A stretch of DNA of 64,000 nucleotides from NCBI GenBank assembly GCA_020628815.1, contig JAHDEN010000001.1, forward strand, positions 36,288 to 100,287, read 5' to 3'. The stretch comes from Chloroflexota bacterium (lineage in GTDB: Bacteria; Chloroflexota; Anaerolineae; Promineifilales; Promineifilaceae). The notes under the pieces were generated by a model that saw nothing but the letters and a program-made list of their open reading frames with translations, was not told the DNA's origin and made no database searches. A program made the translations under genes and the position numbers. Positions 2 through 47,796 of the stretch are shown here, piece by piece (positions within the stretch are counted from its first letter, which is position 1; every line of letters starts with the position of its first letter).

Positions 2-2380
2 ATGTGCTTTACGCCAAATGCAACACCAACTGCAGAAGCTGATTTATGGTTCAACACCATCGCGACAGCAGATGCGACAAACAGCTGTGCAAATGTTGAG
101 TTTGAGGCGGAAAGCGGCGCGATGTACGGATTTACCACGGTAGCAGATCCTTCTGCAAGCGGTGGTAGCTACGTCCATACAGAAAACGCAGGTATTTTCG
201 ATTATCCAGTGTCGTCCAGCCGAATGATTACCTACTCGGTTAACATTCCGGCAACCGGCACCTACCAAGTGTTTGGTGATGTTCAAGGGTTAAACGGCAA
301 AAGCGATTCGTTCTATTTCCAAATCGATAATGAATCACCCATTCCTTGGCACATCAAACCAAGCAACAGCTTCTATCAGTTTTATGTTGCAGACTTCGTT
401 AACGGCTGGCACAACTTGTCTTTAGAACTAGAGGCAGGCGAGCATATCGTAACCATCTACAATCGTGAAGATGGCAGCCGTTTAGACAAACTGACTTTTG
501 ACTGTATCGAAGCTCAAGAAACCCCAGGATCTGTATTAGCTAGCACAACAATCACATACACGTTGTTGGCACGTGGTGCCGGTTTTGACCATGCGCTTAT
601 GCACAATCTACCTTTTGCAGAAGGTGGTCAATACTCACTCACAACATACGATGGTGACGGAGTTCAGCTATCAGCTGTAGACGGTTTGTTTGATGAAAAC
701 CAGCCGATTGAGATCTTCGCATCTTCAAAAGTAGGATTGCCACCAATTGATTCGGGTGACGAATACAACACCCAAACCAACACCCGTGGTGATCAAGAGC
801 AGATGGTTAAAGGACACAGTGCGGTCTTAACCTTCTCGATCAACAGTCCAGAAAAGTATCTGCAAGATGACTTAACCGGATTTCCTTGGGACCTTTATCT
901 GCCTGTCCATGACACAGATCAAGAGATCCATCTGCAAATTCCAGGACACATGGAAAACAGCCAGATGGTTAACACCACCTTCGACGCGGGCTCGCCCATG
1001 GTTGGCTACAACCTGCCATTTGGCTTTGTATTTGAAGAAGAATGGACTTGGCCGCTAGAATTTGAAGGGATTTGGAAAGCATATCCAGACTTCGTTAAGT
1101 TTATGAGCACCGGGTTCAACCAAAAACAAGATTGGTATACGGCCGAAAACGCCTTTGGACCATTCTTGTGGAACAACCGCAACACGCGCCAGCCCTTGTT
1201 GCCACTAACCAATGAAGATGTTGAATCTCGTTACTTTGCCAGCCCAGTAGTTGCTGACATCGATGACGACAAGGTTCCTGAAGTCATTGTTGGTGATTTG
1301 ATTGGCAGCAAAGTGTCTGTCTTCGACCTCGGCCAAAAACTAATCTGGTCGGCCGAAACCGATGGTGGTATCCGGGCTGAAGTTGCTATCGAAGACATTG
1401 ACTTTGATGGAGATGTAGAACTACTTGTTGGCGATGAAAGTGGCAAGCTGTATGCATGGCATCACGACGGGACCCCTGTCGCTAACTTCCCAATCACCGT
1501 ATCTAGCGAGCGTTTGCTTTCAAGCCCAACTATCGCAGATATTAACGACGATGCTGAATACGATATCATCCAAGTTAGCTCTGACGGTAACATGTACGTG
1601 TACAAAGCAGATGGCACCTTGCAGTGGCAAGTAGCTTTAGCCGCAAATGCGGACAGCTTCGCCGCACAAGAGCGCAACGGACAAGCTGTAGTTGAAGATC
1701 TGAACGGTGACGGCGCACTCGAGATCGTTGTTCCATCAGCAGATGGCTCTGTCATGGCATTTGATGCGATGGGAGACCTAATCTGGACCTTTGGTGCAGA
1801 AGACAGCGTTTCATCAACCCCGATTGTAGCGAACTTTGACCCAGATCAACCTGGTTACGAAGTGATCTTCGGATCTGGTGACTCTTATTTGTATGTTTTG
1901 AATCAAGATGGCGAGTTAATCTGGAAACGGGCAACCGATTGGATTATTAGCTCAGCCCCTCTGCTTCACGACTTAGATTCAGACGGCTTCCCAGAAATTT
2001 TGGTAGGTGGAGAAGATCAGAAACTCCATGCATTCCACTTCTGGGCAGAGACTGTTGAAGGCTGGCCACAAGAGATTTATGGTGCGATCACTTCTGCTCC
2101 GGTAGCGGGTGACATCGACGCTGATGGCGAAGATGAAATCATGATCGGTGGTGAAGATGGTAAGCTTTACGCTTGGAACAGCGACGGATCTCCCGTCCCA
2201 TCATGGCCAAAACAGACGGGTGAATCATACAAAGGTGCTCCTGTCATCTTGAATGCTGACGACGATGCAGAAGAAGAAATCTTCGCGGCCGACTTTAGCG
2301 GCGCCCTGTTAACTTGGGGAATCGATGAAGAAGATCCAATCGTTATTTACAGAGCATATTTACCATCTGTTGAGCGGTAA
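2..2380 (+). CDS. Secreted FG-GAP/VCBS-repeat beta-propeller protein, C-terminal 792 aa (5' end lies outside the window); a CBM-like module followed by integrin-alpha-like repeats
   Basis: Open frame from the window edge to TAA. Repeated FG-GAP-type motifs (DIDDDKVPEVIVGD, DLNGDGALEIVV, DIDADGEDEIMIGG). The N-terminal 'FEAESGAMYGF..ASGGSYVH..DKLTF' segment resembles a CBM6/35-like sugar-binding module. Collinear and clearly similar by eye to the last ~790 aa of the next gene. Confidence 0.85.
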   Translation: MCFTPNATPTAEADLWFNTIATADATNSCANVEFEAESGAMYGFTTVADPSASGGSYVHTENAGIFDYPVSSSRMITYSVNIPATGTYQVFGDVQGLNGKSDSFYFQIDNESPIPWHIKPSNSFYQFYVADFVNGWHNLSLELEAGEHIVTIYNREDGSRLDKLTFDCIEAQETPGSVLASTTITYTLLARGAGFDHALMHNLPFAEGGQYSLTTYDGDGVQLSAVDGLFDENQPIEIFASSKVGLPPIDSGDEYNTQTNTRGDQEQMVKGHSAVLTFSINSPEKYLQDDLTGFPWDLYLPVHDTDQEIHLQIPGHMENSQMVNTTFDAGSPMVGYNLPFGFVFEEEWTWPLEFEGIWKAYPDFVKFMSTGFNQKQDWYTAENAFGPFLWNNRNTRQPLLPLTNEDVESRYFASPVVADIDDDKVPEVIVGDLIGSKVSVFDLGQKLIWSAETDGGIRAEVAIEDIDFDGDVELLVGDESGKLYAWHHDGTPVANFPITVSSERLLSSPTIADINDDAEYDIIQVSSDGNMYVYKADGTLQWQVALAANADSFAAQERNGQAVVEDLNGDGALEIVVPSADGSVMAFDAMGDLIWTFGAEDSVSSTPIVANFDPDQPGYEVIFGSGDSYLYVLNQDGELIWKRATDWIISSAPLLHDLDSDGFPEILVGGEDQKLHAFHFWAETVEGWPQEIYGAITSAPVAGDIDADGEDEIMIGGEDGKLYAWNSDGSPVPSWPKQTGESYKGAPVILNADDDAEEEIFAADFSGALLTWGIDEEDPIVIYRAYLPSVER

Positions 2381-2414
2381 ACACCGTTTTTAAGCAGATA
2401 ACATAGCAATCCAA

Positions 2415-2448
2415 GGGGATGGCGCACAACAAGCGCCGTCCCCTTTTT
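2415..2448 (+). terminator. Rho-independent terminator after the first giant-protein gene
   Basis: GGGGATGGCGC / loop ACAACAA / GCGCCGTCCCC, followed by TTTTT. Confidence 0.7.
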
Positions 2449-2950
2449 GCTTTAGCATCTCATTTAAGACAGAAGATTAAATACGCTCAAAGCGTACCCC
2501 GTGACTGTGTAAAAGTTCTTCACTCCCTACAGGTCAGTACAAACTCTCCATTGGATTACACCCTCAAACCATTTATGATTTTTCTGCAATAGACACGGCA
2601 CGCTCTAAGAATCACTTCTCTTTTCAGTGCTGTTTACCAATTTCCTACTAGGAACAATCGGGGACCCTGACGGGGCTAGATGTCAAAACCGTCAGAATTT
2701 TCGAAAGGTAATCTATTTAACATTCGCGGTGTTAGCAGAGCCTCTTTTGCTAGCGCCAATTTTTGGTCAGGTGATTCCACACCCAGCCAACCTATGCACA
2801 GCAGGTCATTACCTCTTAATTGCCTGAACATAAAGCTATCGTTGTTTAAGAAGGCAGCGAGTTCATCTCTAGCGATTTAGTTCAATTTATATATTGCGTC
2901 TACGTATGTTTTTCCATGTCTTGTGGGACGGCATCGGCGCAGGATGACTT

Positions 2951-5900
2951 ATGTTCTCAAAAAAATCAGCTTTTCTATTCATTTTTTCGCTTTTGATTTC
3001 AGCAACTGCGGTATTTGCCAACACATCGTTTGCAGATCCAAATGCTGGAACTTTGACCCTAACCCACGGGGTCGGAGATCAAGAGCCCCTATTAGGCGGA
3101 ACAGTCAGTTTCGACATTACTTTAGGGAACACTGGATCCGATCCGGTGACTGACAAAGGTTACAATGTAACTATCTCGAGTACCTTACCCGTTAGCGTCA
3201 CGTACGTTAGCGCAACAATAAGTCCAACTTACATTGAAGAACAAGCCGATGGATCAACATTGCTGTTTTGGGACAATATTGCGGACTTAGAGGTAAACGA
3301 AGAATTGGGTCTATCTATCACAGGGTCGCTTAGCCCAGATATTACAATCGCAGATACGATCACAAACACTGTTTTGGCTAGCTTCAACAATGCGCCTGAC
3401 AACAGTCTGGCATGGCAAGAAGTTACCTCTCAGGTTTTAGCTTTACCACAAGCGATCGACATCGAGACAGTTGCGATTCAGTCAACGGCCGATGAGCAAG
3501 CAACCGGTGCGGGAGAATACGATGGGAGTGCAGACTGGCCTTACCAATACAAAGCGACGATTAAAAATAATAATGTGGGGTCCACAGAAGATGTAGTGGC
3601 GACGGTTATTTTACCGGCCGGTGTTGCGTACTTGGGCGATGTTTCAATCAGCCCAAATCCAAACAACAGCTCAACCACGCCAGACATCTCATTAAACGAA
3701 GATGGATCACTAACTTTAGAATGGGATCTTGGCACGTTGACTACAGCTCAATATGCCACTCCTGTAGAGATTTTGTTCGATGTGGCTATTCCACACAACT
3801 TCCGCACCAGCGATGATTTTCTAGCTCTTGCAGGTCCTTTTGCGGGACCAATGAGCGGTGGGATCATTCCTGAAGATCAAGTGATGGAAGTAACCTATGA
3901 AGCGACAGGTATGTACGATTCAGCCTCAACGGCCGATGGAACCACATCTACCCCAGATGATGACGCACCCGTTATCGTGATTGCTGAATATTTAACTATT
4001 TCAAAATCCGCTTCGCCAACCGTTGTAGGCATCGGTGACACCGTCACATTTAATATCGACTATTTTGTCTCTGAATACTACACAACAACCAGCGTGGTCA
4101 TCACAGACATCTTGCCTGATGGAATGACGTTTGTAAGCTCATCACTCTTCCCAAGCAGCATCACAGAAGATTCTCCGGGAGCGGGCCAAACAACCATCGT
4201 CTTTGATATTCCTACGCCTAATACCATTCCGGGATCAAGCGGAACAATTGAAATTACCGCAACGGTAGACGAAACCTATGAGCGTGCACCTTATGCAGGC
4301 CAACCGATTGTTTCGGCCGACAGCCTGACCAATCAGTCAACCCTTGGCAACGATTGGGAAGACATTGTGGTTGAGGACCGATCAGACGCTGGGATTCCTG
4401 ACCAGTCAAACGCAACTGTCACAACTAGAAAACCAACCCTAACCAAAGATGTAAAAGATCCTGTAACCGGTTTATGGGGTGATGAGAGCTACGGATTTAC
4501 CGGCGACACAATTTATTTCAGAATCAACTTTGCCCAAGCGGCCGATGTTGATGGCAAAGAAGTTGTTATTCGAGATTTCTTGCCACGCGGCATGACCTTT
4601 GTTGGCTCAACGGACACTTACACCTCAAGTGGCACATTTACGAGCGCAGGCAGCTGTACAACCAACGTCAGCTCTCCTACGATTGGTGATCTAAATGGTT
4701 TGCAATATCTAGAATGGAGATTGTGCGATGTTGACCAAGGCAGCACTTGGGAAACGCAATTTGGTGCGATCTTAGGCGATATGCCAGACGTTCAACCCAA
4801 CTGGATCGTCGGTAACTTCGGAAAATTAAGCTTCCAAAATACATATGGAGATGGGTTCAGCGAACGGGACTTTGCAACGGTTGATTACCGTGCACCGGAT
4901 CTAGTTTTAACTAAATCATCGACCCCAAGCAGCTCATTAAACGGCGGCGATGCGGTTGCGTATACGATTACGGTAGAAAACCAAGGTGACGCCACGGCGT
5001 ACAACTTGAATCTGCTCGACATTTTGCCCGAGTGGCTGATTGTTTCAGCCAGCGGTGGCTCAGCCACACCTGCCAGCAGCAGCTTCACGGCCGACACAGG
5101 CGCTCAGGCTGGAAATGGTGGCACGGCAACTTGGTCACAAATCGCGAGTCTAGCGGTGGGTGAAAGCCAAACGTTTACATACAACGCCACGGTTAAAAAC
5201 GGTGTGATTCCGGGTGAAGCACTCACCAACATTGCGTCAGTGGCTTACAACAGCCGCAGCGACAATACAGGACACGCATGGACCCATTCCAGCGACCCTG
5301 AAGACAATCACACGGCCGACAACACCGTGTACGTTGAAGGTTTAACGATCACCAAATCGTTTGAACCAAACAACGTCACCATCGGTGATATTGTGACATG
5401 GACCTTAGATGTAAATGTTCCAGCAAACGTGCATGCACACTTCCCTGTGGTTGAAGAAAACAATTTGCCACAAGGGTTCGACTATGTTGCAAACAGCACC
5501 GTCATCAACAATGCCACATTATCAACGGCTCATGCTCAAAATCCATTGGATGATGGGTATCGCGACCTGCGTTGGTTCGTTGATTCAATTGACAACTCTT
5601 CCAGCGGGACTGTGCGCCAATTTTCAATTGAATTCCAGACACTGTTTACAGGGGTTCAAGGCACAAACACCGCCAACGAATTCCACATAGATAACTGTAA
5701 AAATTACAATAAGACCAATACGGCCTATGTAGGTTGGTATGGCACCTCTAATGGGTTTAGTGGTGGTCAAGCAGAAGATAGCATTAGCACATCTTATGAC
5801 TACAAAAGCCCTAAAGGAACAGCAAAAATCAAGCTGCAACAACCTTGTTTGAACATTGCCAAATCGGCCCAATACTCAAGCGTTGGTTCGGACGGCCAGT

Positions 5901-8900
5901 TCTACTACGAAATTGTTATTTCAAACAGTGGTGACAAACCGGCATTTGACGTAGAAATTTCAGACACGTTGCCAGCAGGCATCACGTATAACAGCACAAA
6001 TCCGGTTACGTTTGACCCGGCTCCAACAGATACGGGTACAACCCTAACAAATTCAGTTGGTGACACAGAGATTGAATTTACAATCAACGAAATCCCGGCC
6101 GACGGCACCGCCACAATTCGGTATTTCGTGAATACAGATCCGAAATTGTCAGCCTCGCTTGACCTAGTCAACACAGCCACCATTACCGAGTATTCAACCC
6201 AGCCAGGAACCCCGGCGGATACCAACAGTGATGGCTTGAACGATGAGCGGGTTTATTCGGGCCCAACCGCAACCGCGGCAATCCGAACCTATAACATTTC
6301 TATCAAGAAAGAATCAGATGCGCCTGAAGAATTCACCTATGGTTCAACGATCGTTTATACGTTAACCGTTCCAATGAATCCGATCAAAGCGTATATGTAT
6401 GATGTGGTTATTTCGGACCCATTGCCAGAAGGACTCGAGCCGGTCAGCACATCGGCCGGATCTTTTGACGGTAACACCTTAACCGCCACGTTTGCAGAAA
6501 TTGGTGAACTTCAGCAAGAAGTTATCGTCATCGAAGCACGTGTTCCTGCAGATAGTTCGCTACAAGACGGAGCGATCGTTAGCAACGCAGCATCTGTCAC
6601 AACAGACCAAGATTCAGCAGCCAGCAACACCACAACCGACAACTTTAGCGCACCCGCTCTGGTTGTAGACAAAGTGAGTGATCTGTTTGTTGTCTCTGAA
6701 GGGGACACGGTTGAATACACCATTACCCTGAAAAATGTTGGTACTGGCACAGCGTACAACATTGATTTAAGCGACATTTTACCCGCCAACCAAAGCTATT
6801 TGAATAGCGAAGACGGCAGTTGGACTATTGCTGAATTGGCTGGAAACAGCGAGCAAACGTTCACCTTCTCGACAAACGTAGACTACATCGTTCAAGGTGT
6901 GGGCTACACCAACAGCGCATACGCAGTTGGTGAAGATGCAGAAGGTGGCGCGATCCTGAGTGACAGCAGCAGCCGAGTACCGGCCGATGATGATCCACTT
7001 GATTTGGGTCAGGCAACGATTTATGGTGGCCCGCTCGAATGTAATTCTGAAATCAAAAACGTTGCGTTTGAAGACCTAAAAAATACCGGTTGGAGTGACT
7101 GGGATTACAACGACCTGATCGTAAAAATCGAGACTGAGTTGTGTTTCACCCCATCATCCAGAACACCAGTTGAATTAACCCAAGTTAATGCGTGTGAAAA
7201 TGTTTCTATCGAAGCTGAAAACGGCATCTTAAGTGGCTTCACGGTCATCAATGATGCGGCAGCTAGCGGCGGTTCATACATTCATATGCCTGACACAGAA
7301 GGTGAGTTTGACCCGGCCGATCCGGACGCAGCCACAAGCGCGACCTTCACATTTAACGTCAGCGTACCTGGCTCATACAAATTCACCGGTATCGCAGAAG
7401 GCACAAGCTTCTTTGCAGACTCGTTCTGGTTTGCGATTGATGACGAAGCACCTATCCAATGGGCAGTTCCACGTGATCAAGGCTTAACCGAAGTTGATGT
7501 AGCCGACTACGTGAACGACATTGATCCATACTCTGTTGATTTAGCCCCAGGCGATCACACCGTAACGATTTATAACCGCGAAGACGGCGCACGTTTAGAC
7601 AAACTAACCATGGTTTGCCAAGGCGTCTCTGAAACGTATGTACCTAACACATTGGCCACGGTAAACATTACCTACACGGCCGGTGCGCGCGGTGCTCACT
7701 TTAACCACACCTTGAAACATGATCTAGATGTTTCGGGCAGCGGCCAATCTCACTGGCAGCTATTTGACTCAAGCAACAATGTGTTGCAAAACGAACGTGG
7801 CAACTTTGGTAGTGAAGCAGACTTTGTGATCATTCCAGACACCCACGAGGCGCTACCACCGTATCATGCAGATGATAACGAGCGCCAAACAAACACACGC
7901 AAAGACCAACCTGAATATACAAAAGGGTATTGGGCCACTTTATCAGTCTCCTTGAACGATGCATCGATAAACCCGTTAGACGGGTTGCAGCAGCTACCTT
8001 GGGACGTGTATTTACCAGTTGAAGATACCGGCGAAGAAGTGCATTTGCTCGTTCCTGGTCACTTAGACAACCTACAGGTTGTTTCAGCCAGCTACGATGG
8101 GAATATCGGCTCGCCGCTGTTAGGGCAAAGCCTGCCGCTTGGATTCTCATTTGAAGAAAGCTGGCATTGGCCAACTGAATTCTCAGGAGTTTGGAAAGCA
8201 TATCCTGACTTCGTTGATTTTATCGAATCGGGCAGATCAGAATCATTGCAATGGTACGAACTAGAGAAATCGATCGACTGGTTTATCTGGGAAACCCATT
8301 TAGGTTCAGATGTTCCATTTGATGTTTTGGCCGAGCAGGTAACCAGCCGGTACCAAGGCAGCCCGATTGTGGCAGACCTTGATCTTGACGGAAACAACGA
8401 GATCATCGTTGGTGACTTAATCGGGAACGAAGTTGCTGTGTTCACAGGTGGACAATCTGTGGTCTGGAAAGCGGCTACCAACGGTGGTATCCGTGGCTCA
8501 GCAGCGGCCGGCAATCTGGATGATGACAATGAGCTAGAGGTTATCGCCCTAGCAGAAGACGGCATGCTTTACGGCTGGAACCATGACGGTTCAGTCCTTG
8601 ATGGATATCCGATCCAAATCATCGACGGCCGGTTGTTATCGTCACCCATCATTGTTGACCTTGAAGATGACGCCTCAAACGACATCTTGATCTCTGCATC
8701 AAACGGCCGGTTGTACGCCCGTAATGCAGACGGTAGCGCCAAATGGAACTCAAGCATCGGCGATATTGTAGATGCGTTTGGTAGCCAAAGCCTGAACAGC
8801 TCACCCGCTTATGGGGACTTAGACGGCGATGGTGACCTTGAAGTTGTGGTTGGCTCATACGACAAATGTATGTACGCCTTCGACCATTTAGGAACTGAAC

Positions 8901-9490
8901 TTTGGAAATTCTGCACAGACGACATCATCGTCTCGACACCGATCATCGCTGAATTCGCTCTTGACTCATCAGGAGACGAGGTCATCTTCGGCTCGGGCGA
9001 CCAGTATATTTATGTCATCAAGAAAGATGGCTCAATCTACTGGAAACGTGAAACCGGCTGGATCGTTCAAGGCTCCCCTATTGTCGAAGACATTAATGGA
9101 GATGGATTTGCCGATGTACTGATCGGAAGTGATGACGACAAGCTACACGCCAAAGACTTTGACGGTAGAGACATTCCAGGTTGGCCACGTGCGACCTCGG
9201 GTGACATTGTCGGCAAAGCCAGCATTGGTGACATCGACGGCGACGGCGAAGATGAAATTCTAGTGGGAAGTAGCGACGCTAACATCTACGCCTTTGAGAA
9301 AGATGGCTCGGCCGTATCAGGCGACTGGCCACAAGCTACCGACGCATCTATTAAAGGGGCGACCGTCATCGCAAATATGGATGACGACCCTGCTCTAGAA
9401 GTAGTTGCCACAGACTTTACCGGTAATTTGTATGTAATCGGCGCAGATCGTGATTTAATCAAGATTTTCTTGCCGGTCATCACCCGTTAG
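2951..9490 (+). CDS. Giant secreted surface protein (2179 aa): signal peptide, ~9 DUF11-type conserved repeat domains, DUF4114-like motif, CBM-like module, C-terminal FG-GAP beta-propeller
   Basis: N-terminal signal peptide MFSKKSAFLFIFSLLISATAVFANTSFA. Repeated 'TYTITVxNxG...A.N..l.D.LP.G' units (e.g. VAYTITVENQGDATAYNLNLLDILPEWL, VEYTITLKNVGTGTAYNIDLSDILPANQSY). WSDWDYNDLIVKIE (DUF4114 signature). FG-GAP motifs DLDGDGDLEVVVGS, DINGDGFADVLIGS, DIDGDGEDEILVGS. Confidence 0.9.
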   Translation: MFSKKSAFLFIFSLLISATAVFANTSFADPNAGTLTLTHGVGDQEPLLGGTVSFDITLGNTGSDPVTDKGYNVTISSTLPVSVTYVSATISPTYIEEQADGSTLLFWDNIADLEVNEELGLSITGSLSPDITIADTITNTVLASFNNAPDNSLAWQEVTSQVLALPQAIDIETVAIQSTADEQATGAGEYDGSADWPYQYKATIKNNNVGSTEDVVATVILPAGVAYLGDVSISPNPNNSSTTPDISLNEDGSLTLEWDLGTLTTAQYATPVEILFDVAIPHNFRTSDDFLALAGPFAGPMSGGIIPEDQVMEVTYEATGMYDSASTADGTTSTPDDDAPVIVIAEYLTISKSASPTVVGIGDTVTFNIDYFVSEYYTTTSVVITDILPDGMTFVSSSLFPSSITEDSPGAGQTTIVFDIPTPNTIPGSSGTIEITATVDETYERAPYAGQPIVSADSLTNQSTLGNDWEDIVVEDRSDAGIPDQSNATVTTRKPTLTKDVKDPVTGLWGDESYGFTGDTIYFRINFAQAADVDGKEVVIRDFLPRGMTFVGSTDTYTSSGTFTSAGSCTTNVSSPTIGDLNGLQYLEWRLCDVDQGSTWETQFGAILGDMPDVQPNWIVGNFGKLSFQNTYGDGFSERDFATVDYRAPDLVLTKSSTPSSSLNGGDAVAYTITVENQGDATAYNLNLLDILPEWLIVSASGGSATPASSSFTADTGAQAGNGGTATWSQIASLAVGESQTFTYNATVKNGVIPGEALTNIASVAYNSRSDNTGHAWTHSSDPEDNHTADNTVYVEGLTITKSFEPNNVTIGDIVTWTLDVNVPANVHAHFPVVEENNLPQGFDYVANSTVINNATLSTAHAQNPLDDGYRDLRWFVDSIDNSSSGTVRQFSIEFQTLFTGVQGTNTANEFHIDNCKNYNKTNTAYVGWYGTSNGFSGGQAEDSISTSYDYKSPKGTAKIKLQQPCLNIAKSAQYSSVGSDGQFYYEIVISNSGDKPAFDVEISDTLPAGITYNSTNPVTFDPAPTDTGTTLTNSVGDTEIEFTINEIPADGTATIRYFVNTDPKLSASLDLVNTATITEYSTQPGTPADTNSDGLNDERVYSGPTATAAIRTYNISIKKESDAPEEFTYGSTIVYTLTVPMNPIKAYMYDVVISDPLPEGLEPVSTSAGSFDGNTLTATFAEIGELQQEVIVIEARVPADSSLQDGAIVSNAASVTTDQDSAASNTTTDNFSAPALVVDKVSDLFVVSEGDTVEYTITLKNVGTGTAYNIDLSDILPANQSYLNSEDGSWTIAELAGNSEQTFTFSTNVDYIVQGVGYTNSAYAVGEDAEGGAILSDSSSRVPADDDPLDLGQATIYGGPLECNSEIKNVAFEDLKNTGWSDWDYNDLIVKIETELCFTPSSRTPVELTQVNACENVSIEAENGILSGFTVINDAAASGGSYIHMPDTEGEFDPADPDAATSATFTFNVSVPGSYKFTGIAEGTSFFADSFWFAIDDEAPIQWAVPRDQGLTEVDVADYVNDIDPYSVDLAPGDHTVTIYNREDGARLDKLTMVCQGVSETYVPNTLATVNITYTAGARGAHFNHTLKHDLDVSGSGQSHWQLFDSSNNVLQNERGNFGSEADFVIIPDTHEALPPYHADDNERQTNTRKDQPEYTKGYWATLSVSLNDASINPLDGLQQLPWDVYLPVEDTGEEVHLLVPGHLDNLQVVSASYDGNIGSPLLGQSLPLGFSFEESWHWPTEFSGVWKAYPDFVDFIESGRSESLQWYELEKSIDWFIWETHLGSDVPFDVLAEQVTSRYQGSPIVADLDLDGNNEIIVGDLIGNEVAVFTGGQSVVWKAATNGGIRGSAAAGNLDDDNELEVIALAEDGMLYGWNHDGSVLDGYPIQIIDGRLLSSPIIVDLEDDASNDILISASNGRLYARNADGSAKWNSSIGDIVDAFGSQSLNSSPAYGDLDGDGDLEVVVGSYDKCMYAFDHLGTELWKFCTDDIIVSTPIIAEFALDSSGDEVIFGSGDQYIYVIKKDGSIYWKRETGWIVQGSPIVEDINGDGFADVLIGSDDDKLHAKDFDGRDIPGWPRATSGDIVGKASIGDIDGDGEDEILVGSSDANIYAFEKDGSAVSGDWPQATDASIKGATVIANMDDDPALEVVATDFTGNLYVIGADRDLIKIFLPVITR

Positions 9491-9500
9491 ACAGAAAAAT

Positions 9501-9644: not shown

Positions 9645-10730
9645 ATGAGTGTATCGTTACCCGACAACAACATCCTGATTATTGATAAGCACACAAAAGA
9701 TGTTGAACCCCTCAAAGTTATTTTAGGAATTTATGGTTATACCGTTACCGTTTGTAACGACAGCATACTAGCCCTGCATAAAGCCCTGCGTAAATCCCCA
9801 GACCTAGTCTTAATCGAAGCATCAATGTCTACAGTAGATGAGTTTGAACTGATCAAGTTTTTACGCCACTACGAAGATACGGAAGAAGTTCCGATCATTT
9901 ATTTAAGTGATCAGGATAACTCTGAAACAAAAATGCAGGCGTTTGCATTGGGCGCTGATGATTACATCGCAAAGCCGTATCAAATAGATGAGGTTGTCGC
10001 CCGCATTAGTATTCATCTAAACAAAATTGAAAAACAAAAAGCCCTGAAAAATAAAATCACCGAGCTAGAGGCCTACACCAATTCTGTAGCCAACGACATC
10101 AAAAGCCCGTTGGGGGTCATGAACGGTTTTGCCGACCAATTAAGAACCTATTGGGACGATTATGACGACGGTAGTAAAAGGACCTTTTTAGATGTAATTG
10201 ATCGTAATTCAAGAAAAATCTCTGAAATTGTCGAAGAACTATTAACCTTTACCGATGTCAGCCGAGCGGATATTTTGATCGAGCCCCTAAACATGACAGA
10301 AGTGATTGAAAACGTGATGGCACGGCTTGCACAGAGCGAAGAAAAATATTTGGGGAAGATGATTGTTCCCGATCAATGGCCCATTGTTGTGGGATACGGA
10401 CCTTGGGTTGAAGAGGTTTGGATCAACTACATTGCAAACGCAATTAAATGTTGTGGGCAAGATGCTGATATTGAATTGGGATTCTCAAATGCAGGATCGG
10501 AATTTACCAAGTTTTGGGTGAAAGATTCTGGACCAGGATTATCAAAACAAGAGGCAGAGGCTGTCTTTCAAAAATATACCCGTCCCAATCAAAACGATAA
10601 AAACGGGTCTGGGCTGGGGCTTTCTATCGCCAAACGGATTGTAGAAAAACTGGGTGGCGAAGTTGGTGTTACAAGCAAATTGGGAGAAGGATCTACGTTC
10701 GAGTTTAGCCTACCTCTCCAAAAAATTTAA
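9645..10730 (+). CDS. Receiver domain fused to a histidine-kinase-like HisKA/HATPase core, with both phospho-acceptor residues substituted
   Basis: REC-like N-terminus with conserved K (YIAKPY), but DLVLIEASMS where DLVLLDxxMP is expected. The H-box reads VANDIKSPL (Asn in place of His). The N-box (NYIANAIK), G1 (KDSGPGL) and G2 (GSGLGLS) motifs are intact. Confidence 0.85.
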   Translation: MSVSLPDNNILIIDKHTKDVEPLKVILGIYGYTVTVCNDSILALHKALRKSPDLVLIEASMSTVDEFELIKFLRHYEDTEEVPIIYLSDQDNSETKMQAFALGADDYIAKPYQIDEVVARISIHLNKIEKQKALKNKITELEAYTNSVANDIKSPLGVMNGFADQLRTYWDDYDDGSKRTFLDVIDRNSRKISEIVEELLTFTDVSRADILIEPLNMTEVIENVMARLAQSEEKYLGKMIVPDQWPIVVGYGPWVEEVWINYIANAIKCCGQDADIELGFSNAGSEFTKFWVKDSGPGLSKQEAEAVFQKYTRPNQNDKNGSGLGLSIAKRIVEKLGGEVGVTSKLGEGSTFEFSLPLQKI

Positions 10731-17106: not shown

Positions 17107-18414
17107 ATGTCTAAAAGCTCAGCCACTAATTTAGCCAATACCAGAGCAACCGGGTTACCTAAACCCCGTTGCTCTTTTTGGCGTTGGATGGTGCTGTGCG
17201 CCCTGTTTTTATCAGCGTGTAGCGAAGGGTCTGCCACAATTGATCCGGAACGTGAACTAACGCTAGATGCACCGAAAGGTCATCCGGTGGGGCAACCGCT
17301 CACGATCTCAGGAGAGCTTGCAGACGTTGAAGACGGCACAATCGGCCGCCTGTCTCTGTTGGGCAGCTACGGGGTTTGGCTGTACGAAAGCAGCTTTGAA
17401 AACGAGCAGATCGTTTTTAACATTCCGGCCGAAGAGACTGAGCAAGCCGGTTTTGTGACGGCCGTCTTCAAAGCCGAAGGCCTAACCCAGCGCGCCCGCT
17501 TTGAAATGATTCCGGGGGAAGCGATTGAACCACTCACCCCACTTGTCGGGCCGCGAACCATCACGGCCAACGGCGAAACATGGTCGATTGCCACCATCGT
17601 CCCCTTTGATAAATTCGCCAATCCAATTGGAGACGGAACAACCGCGACATTCACGATTTATCACCCCGGCAACGTGCTGGAAGAGTTTAAATCGACTACC
17701 CGCCACTTGGTTGCTTGGATGCGGGTCAACAGCAAGACCAAAGCGGGTAAAACCTTTGTCACCGCACAAATCGGGGATGCATATGGGAACGAGACGGAGC
17801 TAATTGAGACGGCCGACTGGCCGGTGCCGTTCACTATGACAAACGAACCGAAAGAAGTTGTGGCTGACGGCAAACAGCTAACCCAGGTGCGCACTAGCCG
17901 GATCGTTGATCAGTTTGGCAACGTGATGCCGGACGGCACGTTGGTGCAGTTTGTGGTTGAAGACGAAGACGGCAATCGACGTGTGTTGCCGTCTAAAACA
18001 GTAGATGGCTTTGCCCATTTGCCGTTGCAGGCCCCGTTGCGGCCGACCCGTTTTACCGTGGTCGGAACCGTTTTTGCGGTTGAAAGCGAGCCGCTGATTA
18101 TCAACTTTAAACCAGGGCCAGCCATCGGTGCGTTTCCGGTTGAAATGGCGGAAGGCAACGCCCAGTTTGACGGCTACATGACATTTAATGCTGGCCCTTT
18201 GCTGGGTGAGCGGGATCAATATATTCCAAATGGAACGCCGGTTTTATTCCGGCTAACCCATGAGACGGGCAAAACGATTGAAGAAGAAGTTGTTTCAGAT
18301 GATGGGTATGCGTTATTCGCCCATCGGCAGGCCCAACTGCTGACCGGCGCCTACACGCTGCAAGTGTATGTCGGCACAGGTGAAGGGCGGCTCACGTTTG
18401 AATACGGCCGCTAG
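17107..18414 (+). CDS. Lipoprotein of unknown function (435 aa), likely beta-rich with Ig-like repeats
   Basis: Signal peptide with lipobox (ALFLSAC). Lies 34 nt after the preceding gene and 16 nt before the next, suggesting an operon. Confidence 0.75.
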   Translation: MSKSSATNLANTRATGLPKPRCSFWRWMVLCALFLSACSEGSATIDPERELTLDAPKGHPVGQPLTISGELADVEDGTIGRLSLLGSYGVWLYESSFENEQIVFNIPAEETEQAGFVTAVFKAEGLTQRARFEMIPGEAIEPLTPLVGPRTITANGETWSIATIVPFDKFANPIGDGTTATFTIYHPGNVLEEFKSTTRHLVAWMRVNSKTKAGKTFVTAQIGDAYGNETELIETADWPVPFTMTNEPKEVVADGKQLTQVRTSRIVDQFGNVMPDGTLVQFVVEDEDGNRRVLPSKTVDGFAHLPLQAPLRPTRFTVVGTVFAVESEPLIINFKPGPAIGAFPVEMAEGNAQFDGYMTFNAGPLLGERDQYIPNGTPVLFRLTHETGKTIEEEVVSDDGYALFAHRQAQLLTGAYTLQVYVGTGEGRLTFEYGR

Positions 18415-25190: not shown

Positions 25191-26363
25191 ATGAATCGAG
25201 CGGTACACTCTTGGATAAATGAACAGCGCCTACGGATTGTCAAAGATACTTTGCGCAAGCTGCCGTTTGATGTATCCAAAGATCTGATCCCCACCCTGCT
25301 CGAAACCCTGCAGCTTTGTTTCGACAAAGATGATTCGGAGCAAACCCAACATATCCAAGAATGGATGCAGCGCCATAAAGACGACCTTAATCGGCAAATC
25401 CATGAGTGGACCACCATCATAAGCACGCTAAAACAGCAAATCATCTCTTCGCTTAAAGACCATTTAGCGGCCGACATCGTCTTGTCAGAATTCCCCACCA
25501 TCGACCGGACGATGACGCTGGCTATGGGGCAAATCAGCCGGGTCGCAGACAATCGTTCACAAGCTGACATGCTGGATCAAATGATCATGCTCAAAGAGCA
25601 GCTGTCGATGCTCGAGAAGAATCGCAAACGCTTTATCCATTTGGCCGCTCATGAGCTTAAAACCCCGCTAACCCTGCTCGAAGGGTATTCGAAGATGTTC
25701 CACGATCATATAAAAGCGGATGATCTTCAGCTCAACATGTACTTGGGGGGTATCGAAAATGGGATTGATCGGCTGCGCGAAATTATTAACGACATGATTG
25801 ATGTGAGCCTGATCACATCGGGCAATTTCACAATTACCCGTCAGCCGGTTTCACTCGGATCGGTTCTGACAAAAGTCATCAATAATATTAATCGGGAATT
25901 TAAAGGGCGCAGTGTGCATGTAGAAGTTGCCCCTCTCGAGAAAAATCATGTGGTGATGGGTGATCCAGAGCGATTGGTTCAAGCGTTTTTCAAGCTGATC
26001 AGCAATGGGGTTAAGTACACGCCAGACGGCGGTACAGTCAAGATCGATCTGGTTCCGCTAACGCGCCGCAGCAATTCGGCCGGTAAACATGCCATGATCG
26101 ATGTCAGAATTGCAGATACCGGTGTGGGTATTTCCCATCAAGTCTTGCCAAAAGTTTTTGAGCCATTTACGGGGGACGGGGACATTAACCTACATTCAAC
26201 CAGCAAAACTAAATTTATGGGCGGTGGCCCGGGATTAGGTTTACCGATTGCAAAAGGGGTTATCGAAGCGCATGACGGAACGCTGTGGGTTGAAAGTGAT
26301 GGATATGACTATGTTGGCTGTCCCGGCAGCACGTTCCACGTTGAGCTCCCCATCGTTGAATAA
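25191..26363 (+). CDS. Cytoplasmic sensor histidine kinase
   Basis: H-box LAAHELKTPL, N-box ISNGVKYTP, G-boxes DTGVGI and GGGPGLGLPIAKG. No TM segment. Confidence 0.85.
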   Translation: MNRAVHSWINEQRLRIVKDTLRKLPFDVSKDLIPTLLETLQLCFDKDDSEQTQHIQEWMQRHKDDLNRQIHEWTTIISTLKQQIISSLKDHLAADIVLSEFPTIDRTMTLAMGQISRVADNRSQADMLDQMIMLKEQLSMLEKNRKRFIHLAAHELKTPLTLLEGYSKMFHDHIKADDLQLNMYLGGIENGIDRLREIINDMIDVSLITSGNFTITRQPVSLGSVLTKVINNINREFKGRSVHVEVAPLEKNHVVMGDPERLVQAFFKLISNGVKYTPDGGTVKIDLVPLTRRSNSAGKHAMIDVRIADTGVGISHQVLPKVFEPFTGDGDINLHSTSKTKFMGGGPGLGLPIAKGVIEAHDGTLWVESDGYDYVGCPGSTFHVELPIVE

Positions 26364-40606: not shown

Positions 40607-40877
40607 ATTTTGAACGGAGAGCTTAAAATAACGTTACTCAACCGTATTCAAGAGCAAAATCACACTAATTAAAATAGTTAACCCGAGTTTTGCTTAAGCT
40701 CGGAACGTCTGAAAATAGTCTTTACAAATTATTTGAGCCCAAATATCTAACTTGAAATCAACTAGAACGATGTCATCTAAGGCCCAAAGGCCCGATGATA
40801 CCGTTCTTTTGGAAGACAACTTGCGTCTTGGCTCTTATCCAAAATTGAGGTTAGTTAATACTCTTTCATGTGGCGAT

Positions 40878-40945
40878 GTCATTCCAGCGGAGGCGGGTAT
40901 CCAGCGCAAAGCCTGGCACTAGATTCCTGCCTATGCAGGAATGAA
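40878..40945. repeat. REP/MITE-like imperfect palindromic element
   Basis: GTCATTCCAGCGGAGGCGGGTATCCAG ... CTAGATTCCTGCCTATGCAGGAATGA. The arms are inverted complements. Translation gives the 'VIPAEAGIQ ... IPAYAGM' pseudo-peptide seen for a widespread bacterial intergenic palindrome family. Confidence 0.45.
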
Positions 40946-40987
40946 GCACTCTTGGTTGACTTTTAAGATACGGTTACGGCAGCGTCA

Positions 40988-42235: not shown

Positions 42236-42239
42236 AGCT

Positions 42240-43787: not shown

Positions 43788-43862
43788 GCGGGAAGAGTAT
43801 CCCGACCAAATTTTTTAGACCAACCGAAATGATAGAAAGAGGGAGATCAATGCAAACTGACT

Positions 43863-45161: not shown

Positions 45162-45571
45162 ATGCCCCAGTGGATGATAGTTTATATCCCTTGGGGCGAT
45201 TTTATAGCTTGGTTTGGGTGGTGCGAGCTCGATCTTGTGGTTTTCTCTCCTCTAAAAAAACTTTAGTCGATACGGGTGTTGCCTGTTGATTGTCTAAAAA
45301 CAATCTAGCTTTGATCACCGGATAGGTGATGAATCTTTGTGTGGTATGCAGGCACACAACTTAAGCAGGTGGTTGGATTATGACAGCTTCAACAAATCTT
45401 GCATCTAAAAATCGAGTTGTTGCGCAGATAACCGGTTTTTTGAGAAGAAAAAGCGCTTTTTGACAGATAGCCTCAAATATCTGTTTAATCTGCTTGAGAC
45501 TCGACTCTTAATGTTTGTTTCTAACATCCTTTTGCTACAATCATCCAAATTTTTAGCAACAGGATTATCAA

Positions 45572-46756
45572 ATGGAAATTGTCTCTCCCGAATCAGTTGG
45601 TGTCAGCTCAGAAAGGCTAGGTCTCATCGACAAAAAGTTTAAGAAATATTGTGAAGATGGCAAAACGGCCGGGATTGTCACGTTAGCCGCTCGTTATGGG
45701 AAGGTGTTTCATCATGATGTTTGGGGGATGCAAAATTTAGAATCAAACACCCCGATGGCACTGGACTCGATTTTTCGGATTTATTCGATGACCAAACCGA
45801 TTGTTAGTGTTGCGCTGATGCAGCTCCACGAAGAAGGGCGCTTCCACCTGAATGATCCCATCAGCCAATTTGCCCCCATGTTTACTGACCTGGAGGTTTT
45901 GAACAGCGACGGCAGCGTTGAAAAAGCTGAACCGGTCACCTTCTGGCATCTGCTGACCCACACCAGCGGTATGAGTTACGGCTTTCGAGATGATCATCCG
46001 CTTGAAAAAATGTATCGGGATGCGGACCTGTTTGAGCGAGAGCTAACGCTTGAGGGGATGATGCAGCGCATCGCCAAATTGCCGCTGCGCTTCCAGCCAG
46101 GGTTTGACTGGCATTACTCCGTTTCAACCGATGTCGTGGGCTATTTGGTTCAAGTCATTTCAGGGCAGCCGCTGGGTGACTATTTGCAAGAAAATATTAT
46201 CCAGCCGCTGGGCATGGTTGATACGAGCTATGAGATTCCTGACGAAAAACTGCCCAGATTAACCAGCCTGTATGGCAGTTTGCAACCGGAAGATCCCTAC
46301 ATGAAGCTGCTTGATCCCCCTGAAACAAGCTTTCACCGGCCGCCTGTGCTAAACCAGCGTGGCGGCAGTGGTTTGCTGTCAACGGCCGCAGATTACATCA
46401 AATTTGCTCAAATGGTTGCAGACGGCGGAACCTATGAAGGCAAACGGTATTTGGGGCGCAAAACAATTGAGCTCATGACAAGCAACCATCTACCCCTGCG
46501 CATGCTCCCGCTGGCTGTCACAAATGAGTTTCCCGGGGTTGGTTTTGGCCTTGGCTTTCATAACATCGTCAACGTAGCTGATACGCAAATGCAAGGCTCG
46601 GTTGGCAATCATGGCTGGAGCGGCGCGGCCGACACCAATTTCTGGATCGATCCGGTTGAAAAACTGATCGGGATGAGCTTTATGCAATATCTTCCGTCAC
46701 GCACTATTGCGGCTCGAGATGATTTTTCCAACTTTCTGTATCAAGCTTTAGAGTAG
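45572..46756 (+). CDS. Beta-lactamase-family serine hydrolase
   Basis: SxxK motif (YSMTKP), HTSG, and a length typical of class C / esterase EstB-like proteins. Confidence 0.8.
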   Translation: MEIVSPESVGVSSERLGLIDKKFKKYCEDGKTAGIVTLAARYGKVFHHDVWGMQNLESNTPMALDSIFRIYSMTKPIVSVALMQLHEEGRFHLNDPISQFAPMFTDLEVLNSDGSVEKAEPVTFWHLLTHTSGMSYGFRDDHPLEKMYRDADLFERELTLEGMMQRIAKLPLRFQPGFDWHYSVSTDVVGYLVQVISGQPLGDYLQENIIQPLGMVDTSYEIPDEKLPRLTSLYGSLQPEDPYMKLLDPPETSFHRPPVLNQRGGSGLLSTAADYIKFAQMVADGGTYEGKRYLGRKTIELMTSNHLPLRMLPLAVTNEFPGVGFGLGFHNIVNVADTQMQGSVGNHGWSGAADTNFWIDPVEKLIGMSFMQYLPSRTIAARDDFSNFLYQALE

Positions 46757-46854
46757 GCCTGACCCAAGTCACCCGACTCAAATCCCAAAGAAACAAACAT
46801 CCGAATCGTTTAAACTACTCTCCAGAACTATGAACCAACGGTTCTGGAGAGAAT

Positions 46855-47796
46855 ATGCGCTTTCGATTTTTGCTTTTTATTTCGGCGTTCGCCATCCTAT
46901 TAGCCGGTTTTGCACTGATGGGTCCCGCCGCCGCCGAGCCGGTCCCCCCGGCCGATTTTGATTTCCCCTACGCCGAGGACGGGAATTTTGATCATATCCT
47001 GTTTGTCTACGAAGATTTTGACGAGAATGAAGGGGGATATTTTGAACCAGAGGCCGGTCTGCAAACGACCGGTTGGGGAGAGTATCTTGATATTTTGACC
47101 CCCGGAACCACCATTGAGGGAGAGTTTGAGTGGATTACAGATAACACCATCGACGGCCGGGCATTCCGTTGCGCCTTAACCGGTGGAGATGCTTTTAACA
47201 ACTATTTTTGTGCAAATAACGTGGCTCGTCTAAACGGCAGCGTGGGGGACTATCCTTATGCAGGCTTAAATTGGCTAGAGTTTGAAATGGACTTTTACGT
47301 TGAGGGACACATCGACTGCACGTTTAGCACCAAATCAGACATGGAAGGGATTGAATGGGTATGGCAATTTACAGAGCCGCCCGACAGCTACGGTTTTGGC
47401 ATAGTCTACGCCCCGTACCGAGGGCAACTGCGCCATTGGACCGAACAGGGAACTTGGGAGCCTTTTGATCCGCCGATTGAATATATCTGTATAGAGGGGA
47501 ACCAGTGGCACCATGTTAAGTTTGTAACCAGCATGCTGTTTGACAAAATTAACTACCACTACATGATTTTAGATGATCAGGTTATCGATTTTAATGGGCA
47601 ACAGCTCGACAAATTCCCGACTTTTGAAGAATGGAAAGACACCTTCATTCAGATGGGGATTCAGGTTGATTCAACGTTTGGAGTGGATGATCCGGCCAGA
47701 GCACGGCCGGTTGCAATGGTCGTTGACAATGTGACTTTAACAGGGCTAAAGTTAACCTTCGACAACCACATTTACCTGCCAGCGGTCCAAAAATAA
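46855..47796 (+). CDS. Secreted protein of unknown function (313 aa) ending in IYLPAVQK
   Basis: Signal peptide MRFRFLLFISAFAILLAGFALMGPAAA. No recognisable catalytic motif. Confidence 0.7.
   Translation: MRFRFLLFISAFAILLAGFALMGPAAAEPVPPADFDFPYAEDGNFDHILFVYEDFDENEGGYFEPEAGLQTTGWGEYLDILTPGTTIEGEFEWITDNTIDGRAFRCALTGGDAFNNYFCANNVARLNGSVGDYPYAGLNWLEFEMDFYVEGHIDCTFSTKSDMEGIEWVWQFTEPPDSYGFGIVYAPYRGQLRHWTEQGTWEPFDPPIEYICIEGNQWHHVKFVTSMLFDKINYHYMILDDQVIDFNGQQLDKFPTFEEWKDTFIQMGIQVDSTFGVDDPARARPVAMVVDNVTLTGLKLTFDNHIYLPAVQK

What the first reader, a model, noticed from the sequence alone, without database searches (positions are those of the whole stretch)
2354..47793. Shared C-terminal octapeptide (I/Y)(F/Y)LPx(V/I)x(R/K)-COOH on three secreted proteins: a possible sorting or secretion tag
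Three proteins with N-terminal signal peptides, or clear exoprotein architecture, end in near-identical tails immediately before the stop:
- ...VIYRAYLPSVER* (2354-2377).
- ...LIKIFLPVITR* (9464-9487).
- ...DNHIYLPAVQK* (47770-47793).

The first two are paralogs. The third (46855-47796) is unrelated in sequence and length, so shared ancestry does not explain the match.

The tail is too short to be a TM anchor and lacks the hydrophobic helix of the LPXTG, PEP-CTERM or GlyGly-CTERM classes. Other secreted proteins in the window lack it (the lipoproteins at 17107 and 22707). A terminal aromatic-Leu-Pro-x-aliphatic-x-basic carboxylate could be recognised by a dedicated protease, transpeptidase or export machinery. 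This interpretation is speculative.
Basis: seen in the sequence. Interest (0 to 1): 0.65.

Follow-up and report, generated by a model that had tools for sequence, protein, structure and literature searches.

The report
Known YLP-box tails on secreted proteins
Three exported proteins of this Chloroflexota bacterium end in the same short tail, which is real and far above chance. NCBI curators already list it as the "YLP-box putative sorting motif", and how it works is still unknown.

Summary
The first two proteins are paralogues (42% identity). The third is unrelated.

The tail is not chance and not a local oddity.
- A codon pattern for YLPLVxR that did not ask for a stop codon was scanned over about 185,000 species genomes. 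In Chloroflexota, 28 of 35 hits lay within 3 codons of a stop. Elsewhere, 2 of 89 did (p = 5e-19).
- Carriers are unrelated exported proteins: C25 and M14 peptidases, LVIVD and FG-GAP propellers, beta-helices, DUF11, CARDB and CotH.
- Orthologues of all three window proteins keep the tail.
- In homologues of the FG-GAP propeller, the same end position carries type IX secretion (T9SS)-type C-terminal domains in other lineages.
- AlphaFold puts the tail outside the confidently folded propeller.

It is not new. NCBIfam models NF050076 (sort_motif_YLP) and NF053834 (ultrashort_CTERM) describe it. P0002 passes the NF053834 cutoff. P0001 and P0003 are divergent variants that the models do not report.

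No partner enzyme was found and no paper describes the motif.

The parts
2..2380 (+). P0001: C-terminal 792 aa of a large exoprotein, 5'-truncated by the window edge. It has a CBM-like region, an LruC/DUF4842 domain and an FG-GAP beta-propeller.
   Evidence: In the AlphaFold model the propeller has pLDDT 92-98.
2327..2377 (+). Flexible C-terminal extension of P0001 (residues 776-792, DEEDPIVIYRAYLPSVER), which lies outside the propeller fold.
   Evidence: pLDDT below 50 and no secondary structure after the last propeller strand (769-772).
2354..2377 (+). Divergent YLP-box tail AYLPSVER, followed by a TAA stop.
   Evidence: 14.5 bits on my own matrix. The NCBIfam models do not report it.
2951..9490 (+). 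P0002: a 2179-aa exoprotein. It has a signal peptide, about 8 DUF11 repeats, a CBM-like region, an LruC/DUF4842 domain and an FG-GAP propeller. It is a paralogue of P0001.
2951..3019 (+). Signal peptide of P0002 (MFSKKSAFLFIFSLLISATAVFA). The cleavage site is approximate.
   Evidence: Read directly. No signal-peptide predictor was available.
9458..9487 (+). YLP-box tail IKIFLPVITR, followed by a TAG stop.
   Evidence: NF053834 at 14.9-15.8 bits (cutoff 10) and NF050076 at 12.8 bits (cutoff 15); 15.4 bits on my own matrix.
46855..47796 (+). P0003: a 313-aa secreted protein with no Pfam or NCBIfam family. It is lineage-specific, with 3 homologues found.
46855..46935 (+). Signal peptide of P0003 (MRFRFLLFISAFAILLAGFALMGPAAA). 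The cleavage site is approximate.
   Evidence: Read directly.
47764..47793 (+). Divergent (Lys-type) YLP-box tail NHIYLPAVQK, followed by a TAA stop.
   Evidence: 17.5 bits on my own matrix. The orthologue P0004 ends KVYLPLVR and scores 17.0 bits on both NCBIfam models. Near-identical tails such as TIYLPAVLK occur in Chloroflexota C25 peptidases.

Best explanation
The three tails are instances of the Chloroflexota 'YLP-box' (NCBIfam NF050076 and NF053834). Two of them are divergent.

The YLP-box is an ultrashort module with consensus [R/K/H]-x-hydrophobic-[Y/F]-L-P-[L/V/A]-[V/I/T]-x-[R/K]. It sits 0-4 residues from the C-terminus. It is appended to many unrelated Sec-exported, multidomain surface or secreted proteins.

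Shown:
- The tail's identity, its strong bias to the C-terminus and its restriction to Chloroflexota.
- Its modularity across folds and its association with N-terminal signal peptides.
- Its conservation in orthologues.
- In FG-GAP homologues, the T9SS-type domains of other lineages occupy the same end position.
- Its predicted lack of fold.

Inferred: after Sec export the exposed hydrophobic 7-mer, bracketed by basic residues, is read by an envelope factor that has not been identified. The factor would work in one of two ways:
(a) It docks the protein non-covalently, by beta-strand addition to a receptor.
(b) It cuts inside the box and releases or transfers the protein, as ultrashort-signal transpeptidases do.

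Either way, large enzymes and adhesins would be retained or matured on the Chloroflexota envelope without any membrane-spanning segment. I consider (a) and (b) about equally likely.
For: Curated identity:
- The P0002 tail passes the NF053834 cutoff (15.8 bits against 10). The tail of the P0003 orthologue passes both models.

C-terminal bias and lineage:
- The pattern YLPLVxR was scanned without requiring a stop. In Chloroflexota, 28 of 35 hits lie within 3 codons of a stop, on ORFs of up to about 1650 aa (two thirds are 400 aa or longer). In other phyla, 2 of 89 do. Fisher p = 5e-19.
- 31 of the 120 returned loci are Chloroflexota by their title.

Modularity:
- Tagged proteins carry C25, M14, LVIVD, beta-helix, DUF11, CARDB, CotH/LTD, PPC and Kelch domains.

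Export:
- 17 of 20 complete tagged ORFs have an N-terminal hydrophobic signal.
- In a cruder count, 21 of 34 tagged genes and 34 of 128 untagged genes have one, p = 2e-4.

Conservation:
- P0003 orthologues end VYLPLVR and IYVPVVVVGG.
- The closest homologues of P0001/P0002 end FLPVITRP, FLPLIGR, FLPLILK and YLPIMKRP.
- 93 of 120 Chloroflexota C25 peptidases end in the box although their domain architecture varies.

Positional equivalence:
- Among 120 FG-GAP homologues, 21 have YLP-like tails and 36 have Por_Secre_tail or FlgD_ig C-terminal domains. None has both.

Structure:
- The tail is outside the fold.
Against: - No experiment and no publication exists.
- No candidate receptor or enzyme recurs next to tagged genes.
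- The P0001 and P0003 tails are not reported by the NCBIfam models.
- An 8-residue signal with no membrane anchor has no characterised precedent among bacterial surface-sorting systems.
- The number of residues after the basic residue varies (0-12). This argues against simple recognition of the free carboxylate.
- Rare internal copies exist (L108).
Confidence: 0.6

Rival explanations
1. Passive membrane or translocon tether. The short hydrophobic stretch plus a terminal Lys or Arg acts as a minimal stop-transfer or interfacial anchor. It delays release from SecYEG or sticks the C-terminus to the membrane or to an anionic envelope polymer. No dedicated enzyme or receptor is involved.
For: - The box is a hydrophobic 7-mer flanked by basic residues.
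- It occurs on exported proteins.
- No partner gene was found.
Against: - Seven residues with a central proline cannot span a bilayer as a helix.
- The strict conservation of Y-L-P (106/129/136 of 144) exceeds what plain hydrophobicity needs.
- Restriction to one phylum suggests a specific reader.
Confidence: 0.15
2. Extracytoplasmic degron or maturation signal. The tail is read by a C-terminal processing or tail-specific protease, or trimmed by a carboxypeptidase. This would control the turnover or activation of exported proteins rather than their location.
For: - The position is strictly near the C-terminus.
- 79 of 144 tags end exactly at Lys or Arg.
- When there is an extension, 27 of 65 end in Pro, a residue that blocks carboxypeptidases.
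- Many carriers are peptidases.
Against: - Known tail-specific proteases prefer small non-polar C-termini (established knowledge).
- The tag sits on many non-enzymes, such as adhesin-like repeat proteins.
- No S41 or PDZ-domain gene recurs nearby.
Confidence: 0.12
3. Structural element. The tail folds back as a final edge strand or beta-hairpin cap on whatever beta-rich domain ends the protein, and protects it from edge-to-edge aggregation.
For: - The tail commonly follows a beta-strand and a 2-5 residue polar turn.
- A proline within an edge strand is a known negative-design feature (established knowledge).
Against: - AlphaFold leaves the P0001 tail unstructured with pLDDT below 50, next to a propeller with pLDDT 92-98.
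- The same sequence follows at least 8 different folds and also PT-rich linkers.
- Homologous domains in other phyla do without it.
Confidence: 0.08
4. Chance resemblance, or a nucleotide-level or translation-termination element such as an arrest peptide or an mRNA signal.
For: The motif is short. Its position close to the stop codon could suggest a role in termination.
Against: - The three window tails use different synonymous codons.
- The matrix gap is 14.5-17.5 bits against 2.0 bits.
- Fisher p = 5e-19.
- The tail is associated with signal peptides.
Confidence: 0.03

Closest known systems
NCBIfam NF050076 'sort_motif_YLP' and NF053834 'ultrashort_CTERM' (YLP-box putative sorting motif-containing protein)
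   Same: - The same 10-11-position motif at the extreme C-terminus of exported Chloroflexota proteins.
- The P0002 tail and the tail of the P0003 orthologue pass the curated cutoffs.
   Different: - The P0001 tail (Ser at x1, Glu at x2) and the P0003 tail (Ala at x1, Lys at the end) are too divergent to be reported by the models.
- The family is only a curated motif. No mechanism, partner or publication was found.
Tripartite C-terminal sorting signals and their enzymes (LPXTG/sortase, PEP-CTERM/exosortase, PGF-CTERM/archaeosortase, GlyGly-CTERM/rhombosortase, MYXO-CTERM/myxosortase)
   Same: - A modular, lineage-restricted C-terminal signature on many unrelated Sec-exported surface proteins.
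- A proline-containing core followed by hydrophobic and then basic residues.
   Different: - The YLP-box has no transmembrane helix. Only 3 residues (positions x1, V and x2, mostly hydrophobic) lie between Pro and the basic residue, and 0-4 residues lie beyond it.
- No processing enzyme is known or was found nearby.
T9SS C-terminal domains (Por_Secre_tail; removed by the PorU sortase-like peptidase)
   Same: - They occupy the same terminal position on homologous FG-GAP propellers in other lineages.
- The carriers are the same kinds of large surface hydrolases and adhesins.
- C25 peptidases are classical T9SS cargo in Bacteroidota (established knowledge, not tested here).
   Different: - The T9SS C-terminal domain is a folded Ig-like domain of about 80 residues, needed to cross an outer membrane.
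- The YLP-box is an unfolded peptide of about 10 residues, in a phylum generally regarded as lacking a classical LPS outer membrane (established knowledge, not tested here).
Ultrashort C-terminal recognition signals of peptide transpeptidases (for example the Asn-His-Val signal of butelase-type asparaginyl ligases, or the AYDG signal of PatG) and C-terminal peptide ligands of PDZ domains (DegS with the OMP YxF tail)
   Same: They show that a handful of C-terminal residues can be enough for specific cleavage and transfer, or for docking. This is a resemblance in how it may work, drawn from my own knowledge.
   Different: - The sequences, organisms and substrates are unrelated.
- PDZ ligands need a fixed hydrophobic last residue. 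The YLP-box ends in Lys or Arg, with a variable extension.

Membership tests
YLP-box putative sorting motif (NCBIfam NF053834 / NF050076) | Match to the curated HMM at or above its cutoff (NF053834: 10 bits; NF050076: 15 bits) | tested here: inconclusive
   - P0002 tail: NF053834 at 14.9-15.8 bits (passes), NF050076 at 12.8 bits (below cutoff).
- P0001 and P0003 tails: no match reported at E <= 10. HMMER's filters drop weak hits.
- P0003 orthologue P0004: 17.0 bits on both models.

YLP-box putative sorting motif (NCBIfam NF053834 / NF050076) | Position at the extreme C-terminus | tested here: met
   All three tails end at the stop codon. In the wider sample, 79 of 144 tags end at the basic residue and 138 of 144 within 4 residues of it.
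YLP-box putative sorting motif (NCBIfam NF053834 / NF050076) | The carrier is an exported protein (N-terminal signal peptide) | tested here: met
   P0002 and P0003 have clear signal peptides. The N-terminus of P0001 is outside the window, but P0001 is a paralogue of P0002.
YLP-box putative sorting motif (NCBIfam NF053834 / NF050076) | Chloroflexota host | tested here: met
   Named homologues of the window proteins come from Chloroflexota/Chloroflexi MAGs.
Sortase/LPXTG-type and exosortase-type tripartite sorting signals | The signature motif is followed by a hydrophobic transmembrane helix of about 15-20 residues and a basic cluster | tested here: not met
   Only 3 residues lie between Pro and the terminal Lys/Arg, and nothing follows. 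No NCBIfam sorting-domain model of these classes matched.
T9SS C-terminal domain | A folded C-terminal domain of about 70-100 residues matching Por_Secre_tail (PF18962) or TIGR04183 | tested here: not met
   There is no such Pfam or NCBIfam hit in P0001-P0003. Homologues in other lineages do have one.

The most novel reading that the evidence does not exclude
The YLP-box is the substrate handle of an undiscovered surface-sorting system specific to Chloroflexota that needs no membrane-spanning segment. One possibility is an extracytoplasmic transpeptidase that cuts inside the box and attaches cargo to the wall or sheath. The other is a docking receptor that binds the box as an added beta-strand wherever it is exposed.
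Probability: 0.35. Interest if true: 0.75.

Novelty: already known. Interest (0 to 1): 0.3.

Why it matters
Chloroflexota are abundant in wastewater, sediments, hot springs and oceans. Their cell envelope is poorly understood.

A tag of about 10 residues marks many of their large secreted hydrolases and adhesin-like proteins. If it is a real sorting signal, it would be by far the shortest one known that works without a transmembrane helix.

Its reader would be a new kind of envelope machinery, and could be a useful protein-ligation or surface-display tool.

For annotation, the window shows that divergent forms escape the current NCBIfam models. These forms end in Lys or have Ser or Ala at position x1, and they seem common in this lineage. 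The models therefore undercount carriers.

Tried and rejected
- Whole-genome work: the fetch from genomes and the genome search were closed. Public loci were used as a proxy.
- The look-up of encoding contigs on P0002 and P0003 found no record. The rest of the window's contig was therefore not read.
- Partner by neighbourhood: an all-against-all BLAST of 217 genes in 32 tag-bearing loci plus the window found no recurrent untagged family beyond ABC transporters and response regulators. A Pfam scan of 118 neighbours gave 117 families, none in more than 3 loci. No sortase, S41, CPBP or rhomboid was among the 25 families the tool listed.
- The neighbourhoods of the P0009 and P0015 orthologues show a conserved polysaccharide and partner-switching cluster, but no peptidase.
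- AlphaFold of P0003 with 4 sequences gave mean pLDDT 43.6 and is not usable.
- Literature: 5 full-text searches for motif strings, 'YLP-box', the model accessions, and Chloroflexota with sorting terms found nothing relevant.
- Two other 'LP' endings in the window (25191-26363 ...HVELPIVE and 9645-10730 ...FSLPLQKI) look like histidine-kinase-type C-termini (GSTF-x-LP; read directly from the sequence, no domain scan was run), not YLP-boxes.
- My recollection that the box is common near N-termini was not borne out. The counts were 96 C-terminal against 3 internal, one of the latter only 11 residues from the end.
Full report
**1. The observation**

- P0001 (2..2380) is cut at its 5' end by the window edge. 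It ends ...IVIYRAYLPSVER*.
- P0002 (2951..9490, 2179 aa) ends ...LIKIFLPVITR*.
- P0003 (46855..47796, 313 aa) ends ...DNHIYLPAVQK*.

P0002 and P0003 begin with classical signal peptides, read directly from the sequence.

P0001 and P0002 are paralogues, with 42% identity over 800 residues. They share a CBM-like region, an LruC/DUF4842 domain and an FG-GAP beta-propeller.

P0003 has no family hit and no similarity to P0002.

The three tails use different synonymous codons, so the conservation is in the peptide and not in the DNA.

Two other ORFs in the window end in 'LP' strings (25191-26363 and 9645-10730). Their endings look like the ordinary histidine-kinase end 'GSTFxxxLP' (read directly from the sequence; no domain scan was run).

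**2. Is it more than chance, and how general is it?**

I scanned one genome per species of bacteria and archaea for a codon-specific pattern encoding Y-L-P-L-V-x-R. The pattern deliberately did not require a stop codon.
- 31 of the 120 loci are Chloroflexota by their record title: Anaerolineae, Thermoflexia, Chloroflexia, Caldilineaceae, or unclassified Chloroflexota.
- In these, 28 of 35 hits have an in-frame stop within 3 codons after the Arg (13 directly after it). The ORFs run up to about 1650 aa, and two thirds are 400 aa or longer.
- In the other 89 loci only 2 hits do. Both are on small contigs labelled 'uncultured Gammaproteobacteria'. One of them looks like a misbinned Chloroflexota beta-helix protein.
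- Fisher's exact p = 5e-19.

The same pattern in viral contigs gave mostly out-of-frame or internal hits.

A relaxed search of the neighbouring genes in the Chloroflexota loci found further, independently encoded tails: 4 strict matches in 744 ORFs. There were none in 4,330 ORFs of the non-Chloroflexota and viral loci.

A position matrix built from 140 tags outside the window scores the three window tails at 17.5, 15.4 and 14.5 bits. The next best window ORF scores 2.0 bits.

**3. Who carries it?**

The 19 full-length tagged ORFs that were scanned are unrelated extracellular proteins:
- C25 gingipain-like and M14 peptidases
- LVIVD propellers
- right-handed beta-helices
- DUF11, CARDB, PPC and SdrD-B repeat proteins
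- a CotH/lamin-tail protein
- a Kelch protein

17 of 20 complete tagged ORFs have an N-terminal hydrophobic signal. A cruder count over all genes in the loci gives 21 of 34 tagged against 34 of 128 untagged, p = 2e-4.

Tagged genes often sit next to each other. L073 holds three in a row.

**4. Conservation and module swapping**

- P0003 has only three detectable homologues. The full-length ones end KVYLPLVR and TIYVPVVVVGG.
- The nearest homologues of the P0001/P0002 propeller (35-44% identity, some named as Chloroflexi) end AFLPVITRP, AFLPLIGR, IFLPLILK, VYLPIMKRP and so on.
- Among the 120 best propeller homologues, 21 have such a tail. Another 36 carry a Por_Secre_tail or FlgD_ig C-terminal domain, the T9SS type, ending ...KMVLLK. 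None has both.
- Others in that set end in a hydrophobic helix followed by basic residues.
- The YLP tail therefore occupies the slot that known sorting domains occupy in other lineages.
- A second, unrelated family gives the same picture inside the phylum. 93 of 120 close homologues of a Chloroflexota C25 peptidase end in the box, while the domains in front of it vary (PKD, TIG, DUF11, cadherin-like, Ig).
- That set also shows that Lys is as common as Arg at the last position. It contains tails almost identical to that of P0003 (TIYLPAVLK).

**5. Anatomy of the tag (144 non-identical tags, not phylogenetically independent)**

Numbering: position 0 is the Tyr/Phe, and negative numbers count towards the N-terminus.

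| Position | Residues observed |
|---|---|
| -3 / -2 | often His, Arg, Lys or an aromatic residue |
| -1 | Val, Ile or Leu |
| 0 | Tyr 106, Phe 28 |
| +1 | Leu 129 |
| +2 | Pro 136 (rarely Thr or Ala) |
| x1 | Leu, Val, Ala or Ile |
| +4 | Val, Ile or Thr |
| x2 | mostly hydrophobic |
| last | Arg 79, Lys 64 |

- 79 tags stop at the basic residue and 59 have 1-4 more residues.
- Where there is an extension, it starts most often with Asn and ends in Pro in 27 of 65 cases.
- Internal copies are rare: 3 against 96 C-terminal.

AlphaFold was run on P0001 with 46 aligned homologues. It models the propeller at pLDDT 92-98. Residues 776-792, the tail, are left as coil at pLDDT below 50. The tail is therefore an appended flexible peptide and not the closing strand of the propeller.

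**6. Comparison with what is known**

The first NCBIfam scan of the whole proteins listed no sorting model.

A note from an earlier agent of this scan said NCBI curates a 'YLP-box'. I tested this by scanning short C-terminal peptides. NF050076 'sort_motif_YLP' (11 positions, cutoff 15 bits) and NF053834 'ultrashort_CTERM' (10 positions, cutoff 10 bits) exist. Both are described as 'YLP-box putative sorting motif-containing protein'.
- Canonical tails from my loci score 16-21 bits.
- The tail of the P0003 orthologue scores 17.0 bits on both models.
- The P0002 tail scores 15.8 bits (passes) on NF053834 and 12.8 bits (below cutoff) on NF050076.
- The P0001 and P0003 tails are not reported.

The window therefore holds one formally recognised YLP-box and two divergent ones.

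The motif is catalogued but unexplained. Five full-text searches found no paper on it.

It fails the defining feature of the sortase, exosortase, archaeosortase and rhombosortase signals, which is a transmembrane helix. It also fails that of the T9SS C-terminal domain, which is a folded domain.

**7. Mechanism**

Shown:
- The proteins are exported.
- The peptide is flexible, modular, lineage-restricted and near the C-terminus.
- In FG-GAP homologues it stands in the slot where known sorting domains stand.

Inferred: an envelope factor reads it.

I looked for that factor next to tagged genes and found nothing recurrent.

Two forms seem about equally likely to me.
- (a) Non-covalent docking by beta-strand addition. 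This fits the rare internal copies and the variable extension.
- (b) Cleavage or transpeptidation inside the box, with a leaving group of 1-5 residues. The ultrashort signals of peptide ligases are a precedent, from my own knowledge.

Rivals, with my estimated probability:
- Passive membrane or translocon tether: 0.15.
- C-terminal degron or maturation signal: 0.12. The Lys/Arg end and the Pro-capped extensions are suggestive.
- Structural edge strand: 0.08. The AlphaFold result argues against it.
- Chance or a nucleotide-level element: 0.03.

**8. Verdict**

- The tag is already known as the YLP-box and its mechanism is untested.
- The added value here is modest:
  - an unbiased demonstration of the C-terminal and Chloroflexota specificity;
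  - the positional swap with T9SS-type domains;
  - the predicted disorder of the tail;
  - the Lys-type and divergent variants that escape the curated models;
  - the proline-capped extensions.

Noticed in passing
window 58213-58233 (- strand), end of ORF 58210..59982: A Ser/Thr protein kinase has one predicted transmembrane segment and an extracytoplasmic C-terminal domain of about 200 aa. It ends ...VQFDDVSVMLPVIE*. This resembles the YLP-box core (hydrophobic-hydrophobic-L-P-V-I-x) but lacks the aromatic and the terminal basic residue. It may be a degenerate box on a membrane-anchored protein. It scores low on my matrix and is not reported by NCBIfam.
   Followed up: partly
tags collected from L051-L170 and P0007-P0246: When residues follow the terminal Arg or Lys of the box, the extension is 1-4 residues long. 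It usually starts with Asn, Gly or Asp, and it ends in proline in 27 of 65 cases (for example RNAP, KSP, RTTP, KDVAP). A C-terminal proline blocks most carboxypeptidases. The sequences are not phylogenetically independent.
   Followed up: partly
L171:123-13700 and L174:8699-22525: Orthologues of the window's LruC/FG-GAP YLP-box protein sit in a conserved cluster. It holds a GT-C-type glycosyltransferase (PF04188, Mannosyl_trans2) directly upstream, two further glycosyltransferases, a polysaccharide flippase and a STAS/SpoIIE/HATPase partner-switching module. This suggests a link to exopolysaccharide or sheath biogenesis. The window's own copies have different neighbours downstream.
   Followed up: no
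L073:1-7492: Three tandem exported proteins each end in a YLP-box with a very similar pre-box segment (RTPVF[RK]-hydrophobic-YLPLV). The first is 5'-truncated, the second is a C25 cysteine peptidase and the third is an M14 carboxypeptidase.
   Followed up: partly
L119:3-1478 and L099: The only two non-Chloroflexota-labelled hits with a terminal YLPLVxR are on short contigs of MAGs labelled 'uncultured Gammaproteobacteria'. L119 encodes a beta-helix repeat protein that clusters with Chloroflexota tagged proteins, so the contig is probably misbinned.
   Followed up: partly
L023, L042, L049 (and L037, L047), viral contigs: Related IMG/VR contigs carry tiny frames of 16-23 codons that end ...AYLPLVLR* or ...SYLPLVLR*. 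They may be ends of frameshifted genes of Chloroflexota phages, or chance.
   Followed up: no
P0135, P0136, P0139, P0142, P0143, P0146, P0167, P0208, P0212 (C25 homologues): A subfamily of Chloroflexota C25 peptidases lacks the YLP-box. It ends instead in a conserved ...AGY-Y-P-QN--TC-T-T-P sequence, which may be an alternative C-terminal module.
   Followed up: no
L108:5445-5957 (- strand): An internal YLP-box (NDYLPLVMRSAP...) lies between an Fn3-like domain and the start of an 'NGDFE...W' domain. The frame stops 40 residues later. The MAG's isolate name (MFD series) suggests a long-read assembly, so a frameshift is possible. Earlier notes of this scan also report boxes at domain boundaries.
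   Followed up: partly
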